From NCBI GenBank assembly GCA_951406725.2, contig OX597823.1, forward strand, positions 28,644,001 to 28,708,000: a stretch of DNA of 64,000 nucleotides, in the 5' to 3' direction. The notes beneath the pieces were generated by a model. It was not told the DNA's origin, ran no database searches, and worked only from the letters and a program-made list of their open reading frames with translations. Source of the stretch: Octopus vulgaris. Its lineage: Eukaryota. Positions 3,779 to 59,314 of this stretch are shown piece after piece. How positions within the stretch are numbered: position 1 is the stretch's first letter; each line of letters opens with the position of its first letter. Both the position numbers and the translations under genes were made by a program.

Positions 3779-3845
3779 TGCGTTAATGTTCTTTCTACAA
3801 ACAAGCCCGCATACATGCACATACACGGACATCCCAACACACTTC

Positions 3846-3880
<35 letters not shown>

Positions 3881-4331
3881 AGGAGAAGATAAACATATAA
3901 ATACTCACACGCAGTAATAATATTCAGCTATCAGAAAGAGAGAAAACAAAAGCAAAATGATCTTCGAGCAATACATCAAATGATCTTTGTTGCTTCATAC
4001 ACAATTAGAAGAGTTGAATTGGTTGTTTAAAATCTTGCAATGTGTAACGTTTTACATTTTTATTCCGTGTTATTGTAATATTTTATGTAGGCTGCAGTGT
4101 TGACTCCCACTGCAAGCAGTTGTCAATATAGCAGTAAAAATTTGCTGTTTGCTGCAATTTTTCTCAGCTTGAAGTGTACTATGTGTGATGGATTGATGAA
4201 TTAATAAATTTACGTGGTAGAATAGAAGTAAGGTGGCGATGTGTGTTTTTAATTATTGTTGCAGTGCGTTAATGTTCTTTCTACAAACAAGCCCGCATAC
4301 ATGCACATACACGGACATCCCAACACACTTC

Positions 4332-4366
<35 letters not shown>

Positions 4367-4724
4367 AGGAGAAGATAAACATATAAATACTCACACGCAG
4401 TAATAATATTCAGCTATCAGAAAGAGAGAAAACAAAAGCAAAATGATCTTCGAGCAATACATCAAATGATCTTTGTTGCTTCATACACAATTAGAAGAGT
4501 TGAATTGGTTGTTTAAAATCTTGCAATGTGTAACGTTTTACATTTTTATTCCGTGTTATTGTAATATTTTATGTAGGCTGCAGTGTTGACTCCCACTGCA
4601 AGCAGTTGTCAATATAGCAGTAAAAATTTGCTGTTTGCTGCAATTTTTCTCAGCTTGAAGTGTACTATGTGTGATGGATTGATGAATTAATAAATTTACG
4701 TGGTAGAATAGAAGTAAGGTGGCG
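3779..4724 (+). repeat. Apparently perfect 460-bp tandem duplication (3779-4238, 4265-4724) with a 26-bp spacer
   Basis: Copies identical by eye, including the internal (AT)15 tract. Confidence 0.9.
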
Positions 4725-20545: not shown

Positions 20546-20628
20546 TATTAGAAATGATTATCCTGTTTTTGAATAACTAGTTCATTTTTTTCAGAATTTT
20601 GAAATTTTTCCAGACCGTTGAATAGAAA

Positions 20629-21548
20629 ATGGACGAAAAGCAAATTCACACAATTTTCTTATTCCAGTTTAAGCTAGGCCGAAAAGCTGCTGAAACAGCT
20701 CGCAATATCAACAATGCGTTTGGCCCAGGAACCACTAATGAACGTACAGCACAATTGTGGTTCAAGAAATTTTATAGCGGTGACGAGAGTCTTGAAAATG
20801 ATAAATGTAGTGGTCGACCTTCGGATACTGACAACGATCAACTAAGAGCCTTAGTCAAAGCCAATCCACGCACAATTGTTCGAAAGTTTGTTTCTGAATT
20901 AAACGTAACGTATACGACAATTTCCAACCACTTAAAAGAGATTGGAAAAACAAAAATACTTTGACAAATGGGTGCTGCACGAATTGAACGACAACCAAAA
21001 AACAAAAACAAAAAAAATGCCGTTTTGAAGTGTCGTCTTCCCTTCTTTTACGCAACAAGAACAACCCGTTTCTCGACCGGATTCTTTACGACAACCGGCG
21101 ACGCTCAGCTCAGTGGTTGGACGCCGACGAAACTCCACGGCACTCTCCGAAGCCAAAGTTGTACCAAAAGAAGGTCATAGTGAATGTTTGGTGGTCTGCG
21201 GCCGGTCTCATCCATGACAGCTTTTTGGATTCAGGTGAAAACATTACGGCAGAGAAGTACTGTTAGCAAATGGATGAAATGCATAAGAAACTCCCACAAC
21301 AACAGCCAGCATTGGTCAATAGAAAAGGACCAATTCTTCCCCATGATAATGCTCGGCCATACGTCACACAACTAACCCTGCAGAAGTTGAACGAATTGGG
21401 TTACGAAGCTCTGCCTTATCCGCCATACTCAACAGACCTCTCGCCTGCCGATTATTATTTTTTCAAGCTTCTCGACAACTTCCTGCATAAGAAATGCTTC
21501 AAAAACCAAGACGATGCAAAACGCCTTCAGCTACTTCATCGCCACGAG
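20629..21548 (+). pseudogene. Mariner transposase, near full length, disrupted
   Basis: FKLGRKAAETARNIN HTH; WVLHEL (WVPHEL); HDNARP; YSTDLSPADY (YSPDLAP); frameshifts and stops. Confidence 0.92.
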
Positions 21549-21552
21549 AACG

Positions 21553-22275
21553 CAGGCAGACAGAGAAAAAAGATGGCTGTGGATGACTAAAAGCGATTTA
21601 AAACCGGAAACGGAGGCTCCGTTCTGTGCTGTGCAAGAGCAAGCACTAAGAACAAACTACATAAAATACAGAATAGACAGCACATCAGAAAGTGAAGAGT
21701 GCAGAATGTGTGGACAAAATGGTGAAACCGTACGGCATATTACCGGCCAATGTACGCCACTAGCCCAGAAAGAATATAAGAGACGCCACAACAATATAGC
21801 AAGGCTTGTCCATTGGACATATTGCAACATGTATGGATTTGACAGAACAAAAAATTGGTACGACCATAAACCCGAAGGCATCATGGAAAATGATAATGCA
21901 TAGATCCTGTGGGATTTTATGATTCAGTACGACCATGAGAAAGAAAGCAAACTATGCTGGATTATAGATATAGCATGCCCAGCTGACAGCAAGTTAAGCG
22001 ATGAGGAAGAAAAGTTGATATATATGACAGGTTAGCTTGGAAGGTTAAGCAGGTGTGGTCGATGAAAAAGGTGGTAGTAGTACCAATAATTGTTGGAGCC
22101 CTGGGAACAGTGAGAAGTACATGGAAAAACTAGGGACTGCAGTAAGGGTGGAGCACTTGCAGAAAATAGCACTGCTTGGAACCGCTCGAATACTCCTGAA
22201 GGTGCTCGAAAAATAAGGGGTGTTACATTAGTTCAGTGATAGTGAAAAGCTTACGCCGCAGACGCTGTGCAAAGG
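21553..22275 (+). mobile_element. R4/Dong-like LINE 3' part fused to the mariner
   Basis: QEQALRTNY..CRMCGQNGETVRHITGQC..YKRRHN, then RLE residues and LQKIALLGTARIL. Confidence 0.88.
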
Positions 22276-39619: not shown

Positions 39620-39621
<2 letters not shown>

Positions 39622-40562
39622 GGAAAAAGTCAAGATAGTAAATGCTAAAATAATTTTATAAAAAACATTTTAGTATCGGTCCCAGTCATTGAGACTTTTT
39701 CAACTGTAAGTATGAAAAACAATTAAATTTTGGAAAAATTAAGAGTAAAGTTCTTTTGAAAAGAATATTTGCATAGTGTTCAAATATAAGTGACGTTTTC
39801 CTTGTTTCTGCCTGTCTCTGTTTCTCTTGCTTACTCTTGTGAGTTCGAGGTCGTTGTGAATTCTTGGTAGGGAAGAAGAAAAAGAAGAAGAAGAAGAAGA
39901 AGAAGAAGAAGAAGAAGAAGAAGAAGAAGAAGAAGAAGAAGAAGAAGAAGAAGAAGAAGGAGGAGGAATAAGAAGGAATGGAGGTAGTGTGAAAGTTGTA
40001 AGGTCTTAAATGTTCAAATGACTTAAAATAGGCAAGTTATGAATTATAGCAGTGATTGGGACTGTTTTTTAATGAATTCTTTGTAATCTCTTGAGTGTAT
40101 CATATTTAATATTTGCGTGTGTATTTGTGTTATTTTAAGGCCGTGGTAGATATGTCGTTTGTCGTAGACGCGTTCAAATGGGGACTGTATTTTGTAATAA
40201 AGAGAGTCACTTTACTAATTCGTTGGCTCCAGGTTGTATCGTCCCTGAATTAGTAGAGGGGCAAAACTTTGAAGCCTGGATTTTTATTATTGGCGCAAAT
40301 GTCTATGTGTTGGCTGAATGCTATGTTTCTGCTTTGAGGAATTTTGATCTGGGATCTGTGCAGAGCCATTCTTTTACGTAGACTGTTTATTGTTTATCCT
40401 ATATATTGCTCTTGACACCCAGAGCAGGTTAGTGCGTATATCAGGTTTTGCGAGGTACATGTGAAGTTGCTTTTCACTGTGAAACGTTGTCCCTGTTTGA
40501 AGGAGAACTCTGATTACTCATTTAAATTGACGCATATCCCACAGTTGGGTCTTCCGCATTTT
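39620..40562 (-). mobile_element. Penelope-like element 3' part (GIY-YIG and 3' region)
   Basis: KCGRPNCGIC...NFTCTSQNLIYALTCSGCQEQYIG..LRKRMALHRSQI; ends at (TA)n. Confidence 0.88.
39671..39706 (-). ncRNA. Decayed U3-A8 hammerhead in the PLE 3' region
   Basis: Minus strand: cag-TTGAAAA-agtc[tcaat]gact-GGGA-ccga-TA-cta; GAAA is mutated. Confidence 0.5.
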
Positions 40563-41069
40563 TTACTGTTGGTATAGGATGTGATGGTTTAAGGTTTTTT
40601 GAGAGATGCGGTGGGTTTGTGGGTGTTTGTAGGGTGGACTGTATGGGAGGTTGTAGGGAGGGTATGTAGTTATAGTGATTATGTTGGTATGGGATGTGAG
40701 GGTTTGGATATTTGTAGGAAATGTGGTAGGATTGTGGGTGTTGGTTGGATGGATGGATTGTATGGAGTTCGTTGGGTGGGGATTATCTGTATAGGTGTGG
40801 GTAGGATACATTGTTTGTTATTGGTGTGAGAGTGGGGAGTATTGAGAAGGAGATAATTCCTAGTGTATGGGGGGGTTCTCGATGCTTCTTGTCGGTGGGA
40901 AAGGAGGATTAGAATGATTAAAGATCCAGGTTTTGAGGTGACTCTTGTTTGAATTTTTTCGGGCAGGAAAGGGCTTTTTGTATGGTTGGGGAAAGTTTTG
41001 TCCCGTGTGGAGGGGGTTTGAAGATTATGTGTGTTTGAGGTATGGTTTGGGGTGGTGTTAATGGGGGAC

Positions 41070-42120
41070 AGTGGGAAACGTGCCAAGGAAATCGACAATA
41101 ATACACTAAAAACCACCCAACACAGTACTACCCAACCTTTAAAATACTTCCATACATTTCCACCCACAACCCCAAAACCATTGAAGCATACACCACAATC
41201 ATACAAAAACTCTCCTTACTGTCCACAGACCCAAAAATGAATAATATTATCAATACACATAACATCCTTAAATGCAAAAGGCAACATAAATCAGTGAAAA
41301 AACTCTTAACAAATGCCAAATTTCACACACCACATCCACCCTCATCAGTTAAAAAATGTGCATGCCCTAACTGTGGTACCTGTCCTTTTCTACTTGATGG
41401 CTATGACTTTACTTTCAAACAAGGAAGAAAGTTTAAAATCGCGACAAACTTCTCTTGTTCCTCCGAGAACCACATTTACGTTCTTACATGCGCGGTTGCC
41501 AACTTAATTATATCAAACAAACGAGCCTTCCTTTACGCAGAAGAGCAGCAGTCCATAAAACAGATAAATCTCCCACAATACCGTCAAATTCCACTCTGTA
41601 GCCACATAGACTCTTGCGCTAGAAATAAAAATCCCAAATTTCATATATTCCCTTTCTATCAATGTAAAGACAGAATCTCTACACAAGAAAAAATTAACAA
41701 GGAGAATCTTTTTATTGAAATATTCCAAACGCTTCTTAATATGGAAACTCCATGGTGACCGTATTACATTTCCTAGCATCCTGTTTGACAAAAAATCCAG
41801 CATTCCAATTTAAGAGTATAAAATCCACAGAATTGTTTCCCCTTATTCACAGGAAGTGGATAACTTCTACAGCATTTCTTGTTTTCACACATAAGCATCA
41901 AACCTTTTGAAACAAAGCACTACACTTGAACACATGCATCCTAATCCTCCAAAGAAGTTTTTCCATGGAATAATATTGAACTCTAAAAACATACAATGTA
42001 TTGGTATACTTATTTATTAATTTTTGAATATATTTATTATTTTTTTAAAAAAAACATTGTAAATTTCTTTTTTCCCCTTTCTCAATTTAAAAGAAAGTTC
42101 CCCCCTCCAAATCTAGGTTT
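41070..42120 (+). mobile_element. Penelope-like element 3' part (GIY-YIG)
   Basis: ILPYISTHNP..KCACPNCGTC..NFSCSSENHIYVLTC..SHIDSC..FHIFPFYQ; ends at (TA)n. Confidence 0.88.
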
Positions 42121-42559: not shown

Positions 42560-43554
42560 GTTCATAGCGACATTCACAGAAATAGACTTTCCCTCATAAA
42601 CATACCTGTTCACAATTATATACAGCTATATTAAGAAATTCTTTACTCTGAAGGCCACCGCTGATTTGCCTATTTGTGTACGAGCAAAGATATTGATCTG
42701 ACTAATGTAAGTTTAACGTATAATTTCTCCGAAAACCCGTTATTCATTTCTCTTTCTGTAGATTTAAGTATTTTTCTCGGTTAATACTGTAAGAAAATAG
42801 TATATTAGTAAACTTACTTGTTAAATGTGTCCAAGGTTTCAAGCGGTACCAACGTCAAATAATGATGCATTCAAAGCAGGCACTGTTCTAGGTGCTCAAT
42901 AGCAGGATATTCGTTGAAATAAATAAGATATTTGACGGTAACCATCGAAATATATTGAGTGAAACATCACATAGGCGCAGGAGTGGTTGTGTGGTATTAG
43001 CCATTAAGATGTTATATCTGGTTCGGCAGGGATTTTACCCGGTTAACCGTTTCGACATATTCCTACATACTGGGCCATCTGAAATCGCAGTCAAACTTTT
43101 GTGTGTACCTCAACCCGTTGAGAGTGATGTTTGTTTATTTCCCTCCCCATAATGCCACCCTCTGTGCACAATTGATCAGCATGTCCAGTCTCAGTAAATT
43201 TCGCAGAAAAATATTAAGGTTATATCATAAAATAGAATCCATGTGACCATTTACATGAAGATATAAAAGTTACAGCTAAAAATAAATCGCTATGTGTATT
43301 TGCATGCAAAAAGCCTATTGACTTTATAAAACCCCTGTTCAGGCGCAATTATCGATTTTCTGTCACTGCCATGAGCCTCGCGCACGCATCAATTTTCATC
43401 AAAATCGGACAAATACAAATCGCTGCCAACTGAGCATTATCGTGTTTTCGAAATATTCCCACCTTATTTGAACTTTGCTTGACAACATCACTTGATAGCA
43501 GATACAGGTGTGTTTGCGTCCCAGTAAATTAGCGGTTCGGCAGGACGTGCAACA

Positions 43555-44530
43555 GAAATCGACATAGAAACTTTGAGAAATATTCAACACAGCAACACAT
43601 CATCCCCGAAAATACTGCCTTGCATATCCACATACAACCCCAGAAACAAAGAAGCCTTCACCATCATCACCCAGAAGTTACCAATACTTCATAAAGACCC
43701 CAAATTAAAGGAAATTCTAAACATACATAAAATCATTAAAAGCTACAAACAACCTAAATCACTAAAAAAGATTCTCATAAAGGCAAAATTGTTTTCTGAA
43801 ATTATGGATGCAAAAGTAACAAATGTTGTAGACCAAACTGCGCAACATGCCCAAACCTTCTAGAAGGATCAGAATTCTTCTTCAAAAGGGGACGAAAATT
43901 CAAGATCAAATCTAATTTTACTTGTGCTTCATAAAACATAATTTATGTCATAAGATGCTTGGGCTGCCACCAAAACTACGTAGGGTCCATGGGATTATCA
44001 CTCAGATGCAGATGCACTCTTCCTCGACAACAGATTCCATTTCCAGAATACAGAATGATACGCTTTAGTGAGCATATTGAGAAATGCGCAAAGAAACTAC
44101 TACCACAATTTTTTATCTTTCCATTCTATCAATGTGCTATTGGAACACCAACACAAATTAGATTAAACAAGGAAACATTCTTCATTGAAAAATATAAGCC
44201 TAAACTTAACCATCCTAACATTCTTATACAGAGAAACTCATCTCATTGAAAAAAAGAAAAAATATAAAGTGATTATCTCCCTTATACCGGAAGAAATCCC
44301 TGATTACCTCCCCCGCCTGGAACTCTTCTTTGCACTAGATAACGAAGACATGACACTATGTAGGTAAAGAAATTTGAGAAATTTGAAAAGTTTACACGAA
44401 ACCGGTTATTTCTCCCAAAACTATGTTACTATACACAAAATTTTATAACATTTCTCTAACATAACGACTTAAATATATTCTTTAACCTTATAAAACAAGC
44501 CTTCTGAAGTTTTTTCACTCTTTTCTATTT
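43555..44530 (+). mobile_element. Penelope-like element 3' part (GIY-YIG and HHR)
   Basis: LPCISTYNPRN..CRPNCATC..NIIYVIRCLGCHQNYVG..KETFFIEKYKPKLN; ends at (TA)n. Confidence 0.88.
44376..44414 (+). ncRNA. Minimal hammerhead, U3-A8 variant
   Basis: gagaaat-TTGAAAA-gt[ttac]ac-GAAA-ccgg-TT-atttctc; 7-bp stem I, palindromic ACCGGT. Confidence 0.75.
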
Positions 44531-48538: not shown

Positions 48539-48589
48539 GCATTTACGATCGTTTCGATTTACTGGAGTAAGTAAATCTCTTCAGAATGC
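48539..48589 (-). ncRNA. Canonical minimal type-I hammerhead ribozyme
   Basis: Minus strand: gcatt-CTGAAGA-gatttact[tactcc]agtaaatc-GAAA-cgatcg-TA-aatgc; all core residues and stems intact. Confidence 0.92.
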
Positions 48590-51419: not shown

Positions 51420-51504
51420 TATATAGATATAGATATACATATATAGAGAGAGATAGACACGTATAGATACTCACTTGCATAAATATATATACGCTCATAA
51501 ATCA

Positions 51505-51964
51505 ATTTCTATAACCGGTGTCTCGAAGGCAATTCTTAGATGTTGTCGAGAAGCAATCAAAGAAAAAAGGCCGGGAATTCTCACCAGAGGAGTCCTTTTC
51601 CATCACGACAATGCTCCAGCACACACATCAGTGGTTCCCATGGCAACAATTCGTGATTGTGGATACGAACTTGTTCCCCATCCGCTTTATTCGGCAGACT
51701 TAGCCCTCTCTGACTTTCATCTATTTCCAAAAATTGAAAAATCCCTGGCTGGTCGCCATTTTGTCAGTGACAATGACGTCACAAACGCTGTAGGATGTTT
51801 CTTGGAGTCTCAAACAAAAGAGTCCTTCTGCGCCGGGATAATGGCGCTTCAGCACCACCGGAGAACGTGTTCAGCCACCGAGAGGGACTATGTTGAAAAA
51901 TAAATCACAAGTATTATACCATGTTTTGTTTTTTTGAGGCTCAAGATTTTTCATACACCCCTCG
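51505..51964 (+). mobile_element. Mariner 3' half with right TIR
   Basis: HHDNAPAHTS..HPLYSADLALSDFHLF..DYVEK*; ends ...CATACACCCCTCG+TA. Confidence 0.9.
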
Positions 51965-57548: not shown

Positions 57549-58197
57549 TATATATTTATATATACACATATATACACCATACCGAAAATCAGAGAAACTG
57601 ATGTATATCACATATAAACTTGAATATTAAAACCTATGAAAAACAATCAGCCACTGACTACATATAACTTATGCTCAGTTACATAAATTCTTTTCTTATT
57701 TGAATGCAGCAACGAATGTTGAGATTTAGTATGAGCTTGACTGACGGTGTCTATCGCCAGCAGGATAATTCGAATCGGAATACTGATGTCTTACAAGCCA
57801 TAGATGTCAATAGAAATGAACTCTAGTTTTAACACATCAGTCACTGCAAAACCTTTGACAGGCACAAAATGCTACAGCTACGAAAGCTTTACGTTTGTAT
57901 GCGTGTTATAAATATTATATAATTGTCTTTATTTTAAACCAATATTAATACAAATATGTGTATTGATTTCATTTAAAACCTTGGTGGATCCCACACAAAT
58001 CAGCGAATGTTATATTTTATTGATTTCTATATCGAAACGAAATTTTCACTTAGACCAACCAGTATGACCGCAGGTGAAAGTCATTGTCAACCAGCTGTGA
58101 TTTTAATACATGAGGTCTCTTCAGAGAAGTTTCTCCGAGACAAAGTAGTACAACTAAACTAACAACATATCTGTTCGTTTCTATATACATTATTAAT

Positions 58198-58251
<54 letters not shown>

Positions 58252-58324
58252 ATAGCACCAGGTGGTGCTATTAAGTTAGACATGGCCTGGGCCAATAATG
58301 GCCGAAACCTATCAAAGTATCAGA

Positions 58325-58373
<49 letters not shown>

Positions 58374-58382
58374 TATATATAT

Positions 58383-58768
58383 AAAAATAATAGTTATCGC
58401 CATACTAATATGGCATTCTTATAAAAATAAGAAAAATGCTGTCCGCTTATTAGCTCCATGAGGCCATCGCCTTAGTGGATGTATTCCACCGAAACTAGGT
58501 AAATAAAACCATCGAACAGAGATTGTCGGAAGCGACACCTACTGGCTGGCTACGCTGCATTGAAAAGGGGCAATACCCCGAAACGCGTCTGTAGCTGCCG
58601 GTCAAGTAGTGTGGAGCGACTGACCTCCCTTGTTCGAAGGTTATATGGATACAGTTTGTGTATCAAATAGCTAACTTAAGGCGATGGCCTCATGGAGCTA
58701 ATAAGCGGACAGCATTTTTCTTATTTTTATAAGAATGCCATATTAGTATGGCGATAACTATTATTTTT
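58383..58768. repeat. Perfect 92-bp inverted arms enclosing a ~200-bp hammerhead-bearing core
   Basis: Arms 58383-58474 and 58677-58768; next to (TA)n. Confidence 0.9.
58554..58595 (+). ncRNA. Minimal hammerhead, U3-A8 variant
   Basis: gctgca-TTGAAAA-gggg[caata]cccc-GAAA-cgcg-TC-tgtagc; 6-bp stem I, GUC site, palindromic ACGCGT. Confidence 0.85.
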
Positions 58769-58962
58769 CGGGAACGCTGCCGCTGTTCTCTTTTAGAGAG
58801 ACTTAGTTATTTTAATATTTCTATTATATATATATATATATATATATATATTAATATATATATATATATATATAGACATACATATATTTTTCGTTTTTCC
58901 TGTTTCAGCTCAGAGCTGTGGCCATGCTGATACACCACCGTATATATGTATGTATGTATCTA

Positions 58963-59001
<39 letters not shown>

Positions 59002-59057
59002 CGGAGATGTACTCGCATAGCAAGTAATTTGATCTGAGATCGTGTGCTGAAACGAAA

Positions 59058-59229
59058 ACAATTGCAGCGTGGAAGGTGTTTATAAGCCATTTAAGAAACA
59101 CACACAAGCCGTTCGATTCACTTCAACATTTTAAATTTAAATTTAAAATTAAACTTAAATGTTGAAGTGAATCGAACGGCTTTTGTGTGTTTCTTAAATG
59201 GCTTATAAACACCTTCCACGCTGCAATTG

Positions 59230-59230
<1 letters not shown>
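59058..59230. repeat. Near-perfect 74-bp inverted repeat with an AT-rich spacer
   Basis: Arms 59058-59131 and 59157-59230, one mismatch. Confidence 0.9.

Positions 59231-59314
<84 letters not shown>

What the first reader, a model, noticed from the sequence alone, without database searches (positions are those of the whole stretch)
43555..44530. GIY-YIG Penelope copy followed directly by a U3-A8 hammerhead
About 150 bp after the endonuclease region lies a 39-nt HHR with a 7-bp stem I, UUGAAAA, only a 2-bp stem II and ACCGGU; the element then ends at (TA)n. The related minus-strand copy (39620-40562) has a decayed UUGAAAA motif in its 3' region. This ties the U3-A8 variant to one PLE lineage.
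Basis: partly seen in the sequence, partly recalled or inferred. Interest (0 to 1): 0.7.

Follow-up and report, generated by a model that had tools for sequence, protein, structure and literature searches.

The report
Penelope hammerhead with known U3-A8 swap
A broken fragment of a Penelope-like jumping gene carries, in its tail, a tiny hammerhead RNA motif that would cut only as a pair of copies; its swapped U-A core pair is already published and turns up in several unrelated branches of these elements, so the find is largely ordinary.

Summary
Window 44376-44414 is a minimal type I hammerhead: 7-bp stem I, UUGAAAA, 2-bp stem II, palindromic ACCGGU. It lies 126 nt after the stop of a 5'-truncated, frameshifted GIY-YIG Penelope-like fragment that ends at (TA)n; 1 of 20,000 shuffles matched. 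Two relatives carry the same 2-bp-stem/ACCGGU design in the same place, but with canonical CUGAUGA.

The interpretation, that U3-A8 marks one lineage, fails. U3-A8 needs 7 changes on a 39-row protein tree, and a single U3-A8 clade is rejected (AU p about 1e-73). The same UUGAAAA is printed for a Schistosoma Cercyon element (PMC4209133). A second U3-A8 hammerhead without sequence likeness sits at 58554-58595.

Contigs of four organisms suggest U3-A8 is this family's norm, but 98 variant rows were hidden. The decayed motif in the minus-strand copy is only suggestive. Cleavage is untested. The scan has noted U3-A8 Penelope hammerheads before in other genomes. New member of a known kind.

The parts
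43544..44530 (+). Copy A: 5'-truncated, decayed Penelope-like element (end of the RT-EN linker, GIY-YIG endonuclease, 3' tail/pLTR), ending at (TA)n
   Evidence: tblastn to full-length RT+GIY-YIG proteins, 47-56% identity, E to 1e-57; 5' junction inferred from a loose-end consensus that matches from about 43544; contigs cover it to 44528 in all 4 runs
43528..44249 (+). Broken coding remnant: linker (frame 1), a frameshift near 43820, the CxxxxCxxC motif, a stop at 43932-34, then IIYVIRCLGCHQNYVG (GIY-YIG) and the rest of the endonuclease (frame 3)
   Evidence: Pfam does not recognise the fragments, but 52 homologues found with P0001 carry RT and/or GIY-YIG domains
44376..44414 (+). Minimal type I hammerhead motif with U3-A8 core, 2-bp stem II and palindromic ACCGGU; predicted cut after U44407
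   Evidence: same design in L002 (both repeats) and L011
44530..44543 (.). Short (TA)n at the 3' junction, the likely insertion target
   Evidence: tails of relatives L008 and L012 also run into (TA)n
39620..40624 (-). Copy B: another decayed family member (59% nt identity to A in the endonuclease), with a doubtful decayed motif at about 39665-39710
41063..42120 (+).
58554..58595 (+). Second U3-A8 minimal hammerhead (TTGAAAA, 4-bp G-C stem II, ACGCGT, C17) between 92-bp perfect inverted repeats (58383-58474 / 58677-58768); no sequence likeness to copy A
   Evidence: no PLE protein match among the best hits for 58001-59100

Best explanation
This is the 3' remnant of a Neptune-like Penelope retrotransposon whose tail holds a minimal type I hammerhead motif with U3-A8 in place of the C3-G8 core pair, likely inherited from its family and predicted to cut only when two copies pair through ACCGGU. 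Shown: the anatomy, the sense-strand position behind the endonuclease, the same design in relatives, and the scatter of U3-A8 over the tree. Inferred: in an intact tandem element the two repeats each supply one motif, and the two ACCGGU hexamers form a 6-bp helix III in trans. U3 pairs with A8 as C3 does with G8, and the RNA is cut after GUU (44407), perhaps with help from the element's own protein. The swap has likely arisen several times, by two transitions through a U3-G8 wobble. This lone, truncated copy has no partner motif and no RT, and is probably inert.
For: Descriptor match, 1 of 20,000 shuffles. In 129 related loci, 43 hits lie on the coding strand and 6 on the other. L002 (both flanks of a full ORF) and L011 have GT-N4-AC GAA ACCGGT T with an 8-bp or longer stem I, 117 and 88 nt behind the endonuclease. 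ACCGGU self-duplex -8.3 kcal/mol. Among 39 motifs assigned to an ORF, positions 3/8 are C-G 21, U-A 14, U-G 4, C-A 0. Seven changes on the tree; one clade rejected. Only 1 of the 40 listed variant rows falls inside the 39-mer, and it is in loop II (44393). Literature: minimal hammerheads in PLE repeats, U3-A8 variant, weak dimer cleavage (PMC4209133); natural U3-A8 covariation, said to be active in vitro (PMC3088659); a PLE hammerhead that needs the 3-8 pair and the element's protein (PMC11167929); CX2-5CxxC linker in Neptune/Nematis (PMC8557442).
Against: No cleavage assay. The monomer's predicted fold misuses the core: P(10.1-11.1 pair) is 0.04 here and 0.03 with the majority letter at 44393, against 0.68 in L002 and 0.28 in L011. 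Rfam finds nothing. The family state at 44383 and 44388 is inferred from absence in a cut table. All 40 shown rows reach a share of 0.852 or more in some run, so a C/G share below that is not excluded. Copy C and 49 of 88 elements scanned gave no motif under the strict rule (some for lack of downstream sequence). In PMC11167929 hammerhead mutants did not affect insertion in vitro, so cutting may not be needed for transposition. The clade name rests on motifs, not on a tree with named references.
Confidence: 0.8

Rival explanations
1. U3-A8 is a derived character of one PLE lineage.
For: Copy B, in the same starred clade as A, also shows TTGAAAA before a hairpin (34 of 20,000 shuffles). With near-copies left in, the label is clustered (0 of 500 shuffles as low). 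The core state of the database proteins nearest to copy A (P0001, P0004-P0011) is unknown because no DNA context is held.
Against: Seven changes, 0 of 200 bootstraps with one, AU p 1.5e-73. The nearest loci with DNA and the same design are C3-G8. S. mansoni Cercyon has UUGAAAA while the S. japonicum Cercyon with a near-identical stem II has CUGAAGA. A second, dissimilar U3-A8 motif lies in this window.
Confidence: 0.05
2. U3 and A8 are private decay of this copy (C>T and G>A in an AT-rich genome), and the family has CUGAnGA.
For: The copy is old: about 100 variant places per run, a frameshift and a stop. Same-design relatives are C3-G8. 98 variant rows were not shown.
Against: Changes private to this copy show up as rows with 85-100% share in some run, and neighbours 44357, 44393 and 44416 are listed, but 44383 and 44388 are not. 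Two hits at exactly the paired positions, with the rest of the core intact, are unlikely by decay.
Confidence: 0.12
3. The motif is kept as a binding or folding signal for the element's protein, or is a relic, and does not cut at a useful rate.
For: 2-bp stem II, U17 and a poor monomer fold. Low in vitro activity of PLE minimal hammerheads. No effect of core mutants on insertion in vitro and no reads ending at the cut site in PMC11167929.
Against: The 3-8 pair stays paired in 39 of 39 motifs, and the palindrome and NUH are kept, as expected if the active fold is selected.
Confidence: 0.2
4. Chance match in AT-rich DNA.
For: TTGAAAA occurs 39 times in the window on both strands; no Rfam hit; fold z -0.15.
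Against: 1 of 20,000 shuffles; same design at the same place in L002 and L011.
Confidence: 0.02

Closest known systems
Minimal hammerheads (min-HHR) of metazoan Penelope-like elements, U3-A8 variant of Schistosoma mansoni Cercyon (Cervera and De la Pena 2014, PMC4209133; read: parts 1-2 of 4 of the main text, supplement 2 parts 1-2 of 3)
   Same: Type I, in the repeat 3' of the RT-EN ORF, palindromic remnant of helix III, U3-A8 core. The heptamer UUGAAAA itself is printed for S. mansoni(4), and 5'-truncated copies with only the 3' motif are described.
   Different: Here stem II has 2 bp (in the supplement S3 rows I read the shortest has 3 bp, most 4-8). There is no extra base between A9 and G10.1, stem I is 7 bp, and the palindrome is a 6-mer. 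The carrier is Neptune-like by motif, not Cercyon.
Natural U3-A8 hammerheads (Perreault et al. 2011, PMC3088659; read: passages)
   Same: [quoted passage not shown]
   Different: That survey centres on motifs with tertiary contacts; this one has no closed helix III and would need a partner copy.
Neptune clade of PLEs (as defined in Craig et al. 2021, PMC8557442; read: passages)
   Same: C-terminal GIY-YIG endonuclease with CCHH residues and an upstream CX2-5CxxC motif; 3' end at (TA)n; hammerhead in the tail.
   Different: No named Neptune reference was in my tree; Nematis shares the linker motif.
Dimer-cleaving small hammerheads of Penelope-like elements (Lunse, Weinberg and Breaker, RNA Biol 14:1499; not held, seen only as a citation and in the review PMC6765202, passages)
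   Same: Short palindromic stem III, cleavage as dimers, association with PLEs.
   Different: I could not see whether it covers 2-bp stem II or U3-A8 forms; it may.

Membership tests
Minimal type I hammerhead | Core YUGANRA ... GAAA ... UH with positions 3 and 8 able to pair | tested here: met
   UUGAAAA, GAAA, GUU; U3-A8
Minimal type I hammerhead | Stem I closes the junction | tested here: met
   7 Watson-Crick pairs; inner-pair probability 0.72
Minimal type I hammerhead | Stem II closed by G10.1-C11.1 | tested here: inconclusive
   G-C and U-A present, and the same two pairs in L002 and L011; predicted probability in the monomer only 0.04; no covariation in these two pairs
Minimal type I hammerhead | Palindromic 15-16 region for a helix III in trans | tested here: met
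   ACCGGU, self-duplex -8.3 kcal/mol
Minimal type I hammerhead | Self-cleavage after H17 | not testable with these tools
   needs an assay; the runs laid were contigs, which cannot show RNA ends
EN+ Penelope-like element | C-terminal GIY-YIG endonuclease with CCHH | tested here: met
   52% identity over 130 aa to P0001 641-770; one of the two His positions reads T in this copy (alignment)
EN+ Penelope-like element | Telomerase-like RT in the same ORF | tested here: inconclusive
   absent from this truncated copy; present upstream of the endonuclease in the homologues (PF00078)
EN+ Penelope-like element | Tandem arrangement giving two pLTRs, each with the hammerhead | tested here: inconclusive
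   not in this copy; seen in L002 (positions 58 and 3757)
Neptune clade | CX2-5CxxC motif between RT and EN | tested here: met
   C-xxxx-C-xx-C in copies A, B, C and P0001; invariant C642, C647, C650 in 29 proteins
Neptune clade | RT phylogeny with named Neptune, Nematis and Poseidon references | not tested
Rfam hammerhead families | Covariance-model match | tested here: not met
   no hammerhead among 4 matches at E up to 10 in 43900-44525, and none for 58400-58780

The most novel reading that the evidence does not exclude
The 3-8 core pair of Penelope hammerheads flips repeatedly between C-G and U-A through a tolerated U-G wobble (here 21 C-G, 14 U-A, 4 U-G, 0 C-A; 7 changes on the tree). That would be a phylogenetic signature of continued selection for the catalytic fold. 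In addition, a very small design (2-bp stem II, no bulge, ACCGGU) persists across Neptune-like families only about 38% identical in protein, and this abundant family carries its U3-A8 form as an active, possibly protein-assisted dimer ribozyme.
Probability: 0.4. Interest if true: 0.3.

Novelty: new member of a known kind. Interest (0 to 1): 0.14.

Why it matters
Little that is new. Both the element type and the core swap are in print. The useful by-products are that U3-A8 cannot serve as a lineage marker for Penelope-like elements, that descriptor searches limited to CUGAnGA or to stems II of 3 bp or more miss an abundant family, and that this motif and its C3-G8 twin (L002) form a natural pair for testing what the swap costs in a dimeric hammerhead.

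Tried and rejected
No whole genome is held, so a copy-by-copy consensus could not be built; the single lay of contigs stood in for it and hid 98 variant rows.

Rfam scans of the window, the tail and 58400-58780 gave no hammerhead (in one search the 150 listed of 181 matches were all microRNA families). Pfam gave no meaningful hit on 4 fragments.

Viral contigs gave no relatives and no pattern match. No RNA holder was listed among the runs, which says nothing about expression.

A MAFFT alignment of 7 motifs put 3 of them out of register and was not used. Copy C gave no motif under strict or relaxed rules. The hit at 42085 (-) has no stem II and was rejected as chance.

Earlier-findings look-ups by sequence, genome, relatives and one word set were empty.

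Paper searches: 'hammerhead'+'U3-A8' found only PMC4209133; 'hammerhead'+'C3U'+'G8A' found one paper with no bearing on Penelope elements; 'hammerhead'+'octopus' listed nothing on ribozymes in cephalopods (15 of 51 listed); two searches listed no description of a 2-bp stem II PLE form. The Lunse et al. paper, the most likely place for such a form, is not held, and supplementary file 1 of PMC4209133 was not searchable.

Full report
OBSERVATION. The 39-nt motif is at 44376-44414 on the + strand as described: stem I GAGAAAT/ATTTCTC, core TTGAAAA (44383-89), stem II GT/AC around TTAC, GAA, the palindrome ACCGGT, and T at position 17. My own descriptor found it in 1 of 20,000 dinucleotide shuffles of the 317-nt tail. 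In 100 block-shuffled windows the mean number of hits at score 10 or more was 0.01, against 3 in the real window. Energy alone does not single it out (z -0.15), and Rfam does not see it.

THE ELEMENT. Each holds only the end of the RT-endonuclease linker, a CxxxxCxxC motif and the GIY-YIG domain. A has a frameshift near 43820 and a stop at 43932-34. The homologues are full-length RT + GIY-YIG proteins of about 750 aa. A C-terminal endonuclease with the CX2-5CxxC linker is the Neptune/Nematis plan (PMC8557442, passages), and the (TA)n 3' junction fits; the clade name was not tested with references. A, B and C are each 59% identical in the endonuclease DNA, so they are separate families or very old copies. 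The host is not known. The window is 35% GC and microsatellite-rich, and the nearest named eukaryotic homologues are from bivalves at 40-42%. A mollusc, perhaps a cephalopod, is my recalled impression and was not tested.

FAMILY STATE. No genome is held. I laid contigs of four runs, from four coded organisms, on 43555-44528 at 80% likeness: 3,996, 2,915, 1,746 and 1,258 records, covering all 30 bins including the motif. The family is therefore abundant and the tail is part of it. The table shows 40 variant rows and hides 98. Every shown row reaches a share of at least 0.852 in some run, which suggests ranking by share. Only one shown row lies inside the 39-mer (44393, in loop II, 66-85%), and none is at 44383 or 44388. 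So C3 and G8 are probably not fixed in the family, and U3-A8 is probably inherited, but a lower-share C/G subfamily is not excluded. This step is an inference from a cut table.

RELATIVES. Searches with a 29-protein alignment gave 75 metagenome loci (the best 80 of 460, from part of the collection) and 54 loci from prokaryote assemblies, which I take to be host contamination. A descriptor scan of all 129 gave 43 hits on the coding strand and 6 on the other. L002 has the motif GT-N4-AC GAA ACCGGT T on both sides of a full ORF, and L011 has it once; both have CTGATGA (2 of 129 loci). This confirms the design, including the 2-bp stem II, and shows that the design does not require U3-A8. Of 88 elements reaching the endonuclease, 39 had a motif within 700 nt downstream. 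I dropped 5 duplicates and added 5 by hand from the relaxed scan, giving 39 labels: C-G 21, U-A 14, U-G 4, C-A 0.

ONE LINEAGE? On the careful tree (39 rows after dropping 15 near-copies, long branches and unlabelled rows; 29 labelled: 18, 9, 2), U3-A8 needs 7 changes. At least 5 are forced by starred branches, 0 of 200 bootstrap trees give one, and shuffled labels do as well in 127 of 500 cases. Holding the 9 rows together lowers the log-likelihood by 731 (AU p 1.5e-73). Caveats: the window rows fill only 18-31% of the columns. Five of the 9 U3-A8 rows come from one record series, where tandem arrays could pair a motif with the wrong ORF. The L005 and L080 motifs have only 3-bp stems I. The model was LG+G4 without mixture. 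The proteins nearest to copy A have no DNA context, so their state is unknown. With near-copies kept, the label is clustered, as expected within families. Independent of my tree, the 2014 supplement prints UUGAAAA for an S. mansoni Cercyon element and CUGAAGA for the S. japonicum one with a near-identical stem II, and U3-G8 for a Saccoglossus element. This window also holds a second U3-A8 motif with a 4-bp G-C stem II at 58554-58595 and a C3-G8 motif at 48584 (-).

COPY B. Its TTGAAAA is followed by AGTC-TCAAT-GACT and GGGACCGAT. A rule written after seeing it is met by 34 of 20,000 shuffles. But GAA is lost, stem I has 2 pairs, the design differs from A's, and the tail alignment places A's motif about 70 nt further upstream. 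It may be a decayed hammerhead; it is not established.

MECHANISM. In published models, tandem PLE copies give two repeats per transcript. Two minimal motifs pair through the palindrome to build helix III and cut after NUH; activity in vitro is low (PMC4209133; PMC6765202, passages). Here ACCGGU gives a 6-bp duplex of -8.3 kcal/mol and the cut would fall after U44407. C3-G8 to U3-A8 keeps the core pair and is described as natural and active (PMC3088659, passages). A lizard PLE hammerhead needs the 3-8 pair and the element's protein, yet its cutting was not needed for insertion in vitro (PMC11167929, passages). Against activity here: the monomer is predicted to pair GUUU with AAAC of the core, and the G10.1-C11.1 pair has probability 0.04 (0.03 with the majority loop letter), against 0.68 in L002. 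This single truncated copy has no second matching motif in the window and no RT, so it is probably inert. Anatomy, position, conservation of design and scatter of U3-A8 are shown. Dimer cleavage, inheritance of U3-A8 in the family and the route through U3-G8 are inferred.

VERDICT. A real motif in a real element, of a kind and with a core swap already in print. Earlier notes of this scan report the same kind in several other genomes (unchecked AI notes, not counted as support). The lineage claim is not supported. The only unusual trait is the 2-bp stem II without a bulge. My searches listed no description of it in PLEs, but the paper most likely to hold it could not be read.

Noticed in passing
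window 58383-58768: 92-bp perfect inverted repeats next to (TA)n enclose about 200 bp holding a well-formed U3-A8 minimal hammerhead (58554-58595) with a long extended stem I (90-mer folds at -41 kcal/mol). No PLE protein match nearby. It looks like an inverted 3'-end PLE insertion or a non-autonomous element of another family.
   Followed up: partly
window 48584 (- strand): Canonical CUGAAGA minimal hammerhead with an 8-bp stem II and the palindrome ACGAUCGU, with no PLE protein match nearby.
   Followed up: partly
window 41063-42120 (+) and 39620-41060 (-): Copies C and B lie head to head. The C/A-rich 440 nt between B's endonuclease and C gives only weak matches to the linker (best E 0.003 for 110 aa). 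Copies A and C begin at almost the same codon of the ORF (RAxEID).
   Followed up: partly
L045, L066, L067, L004: U3-G8 wobble cores (TTGAAGA) in otherwise intact motifs; three near-identical copies share it, so it is a family state there rather than decay.
   Followed up: partly
L076-L129: 54 loci in prokaryote genome assemblies encode Penelope-like RTs, often with hammerheads; likely eukaryotic host contigs binned into these assemblies.
   Followed up: no
window 59055-59232: A long AT-rich inverted repeat (hairpin of about 180 nt) that scores against plant microRNA models below their thresholds; probably a MITE-like element.
   Followed up: no
window 20626-21590 and 51457-51903: Decayed frames that look like mariner-type transposase fragments (resemblance recalled, not tested).
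   Followed up: no
window 3779-4724: A 460-bp tandem duplication that is 100% identical; very recent or an assembly artefact.
   Followed up: no
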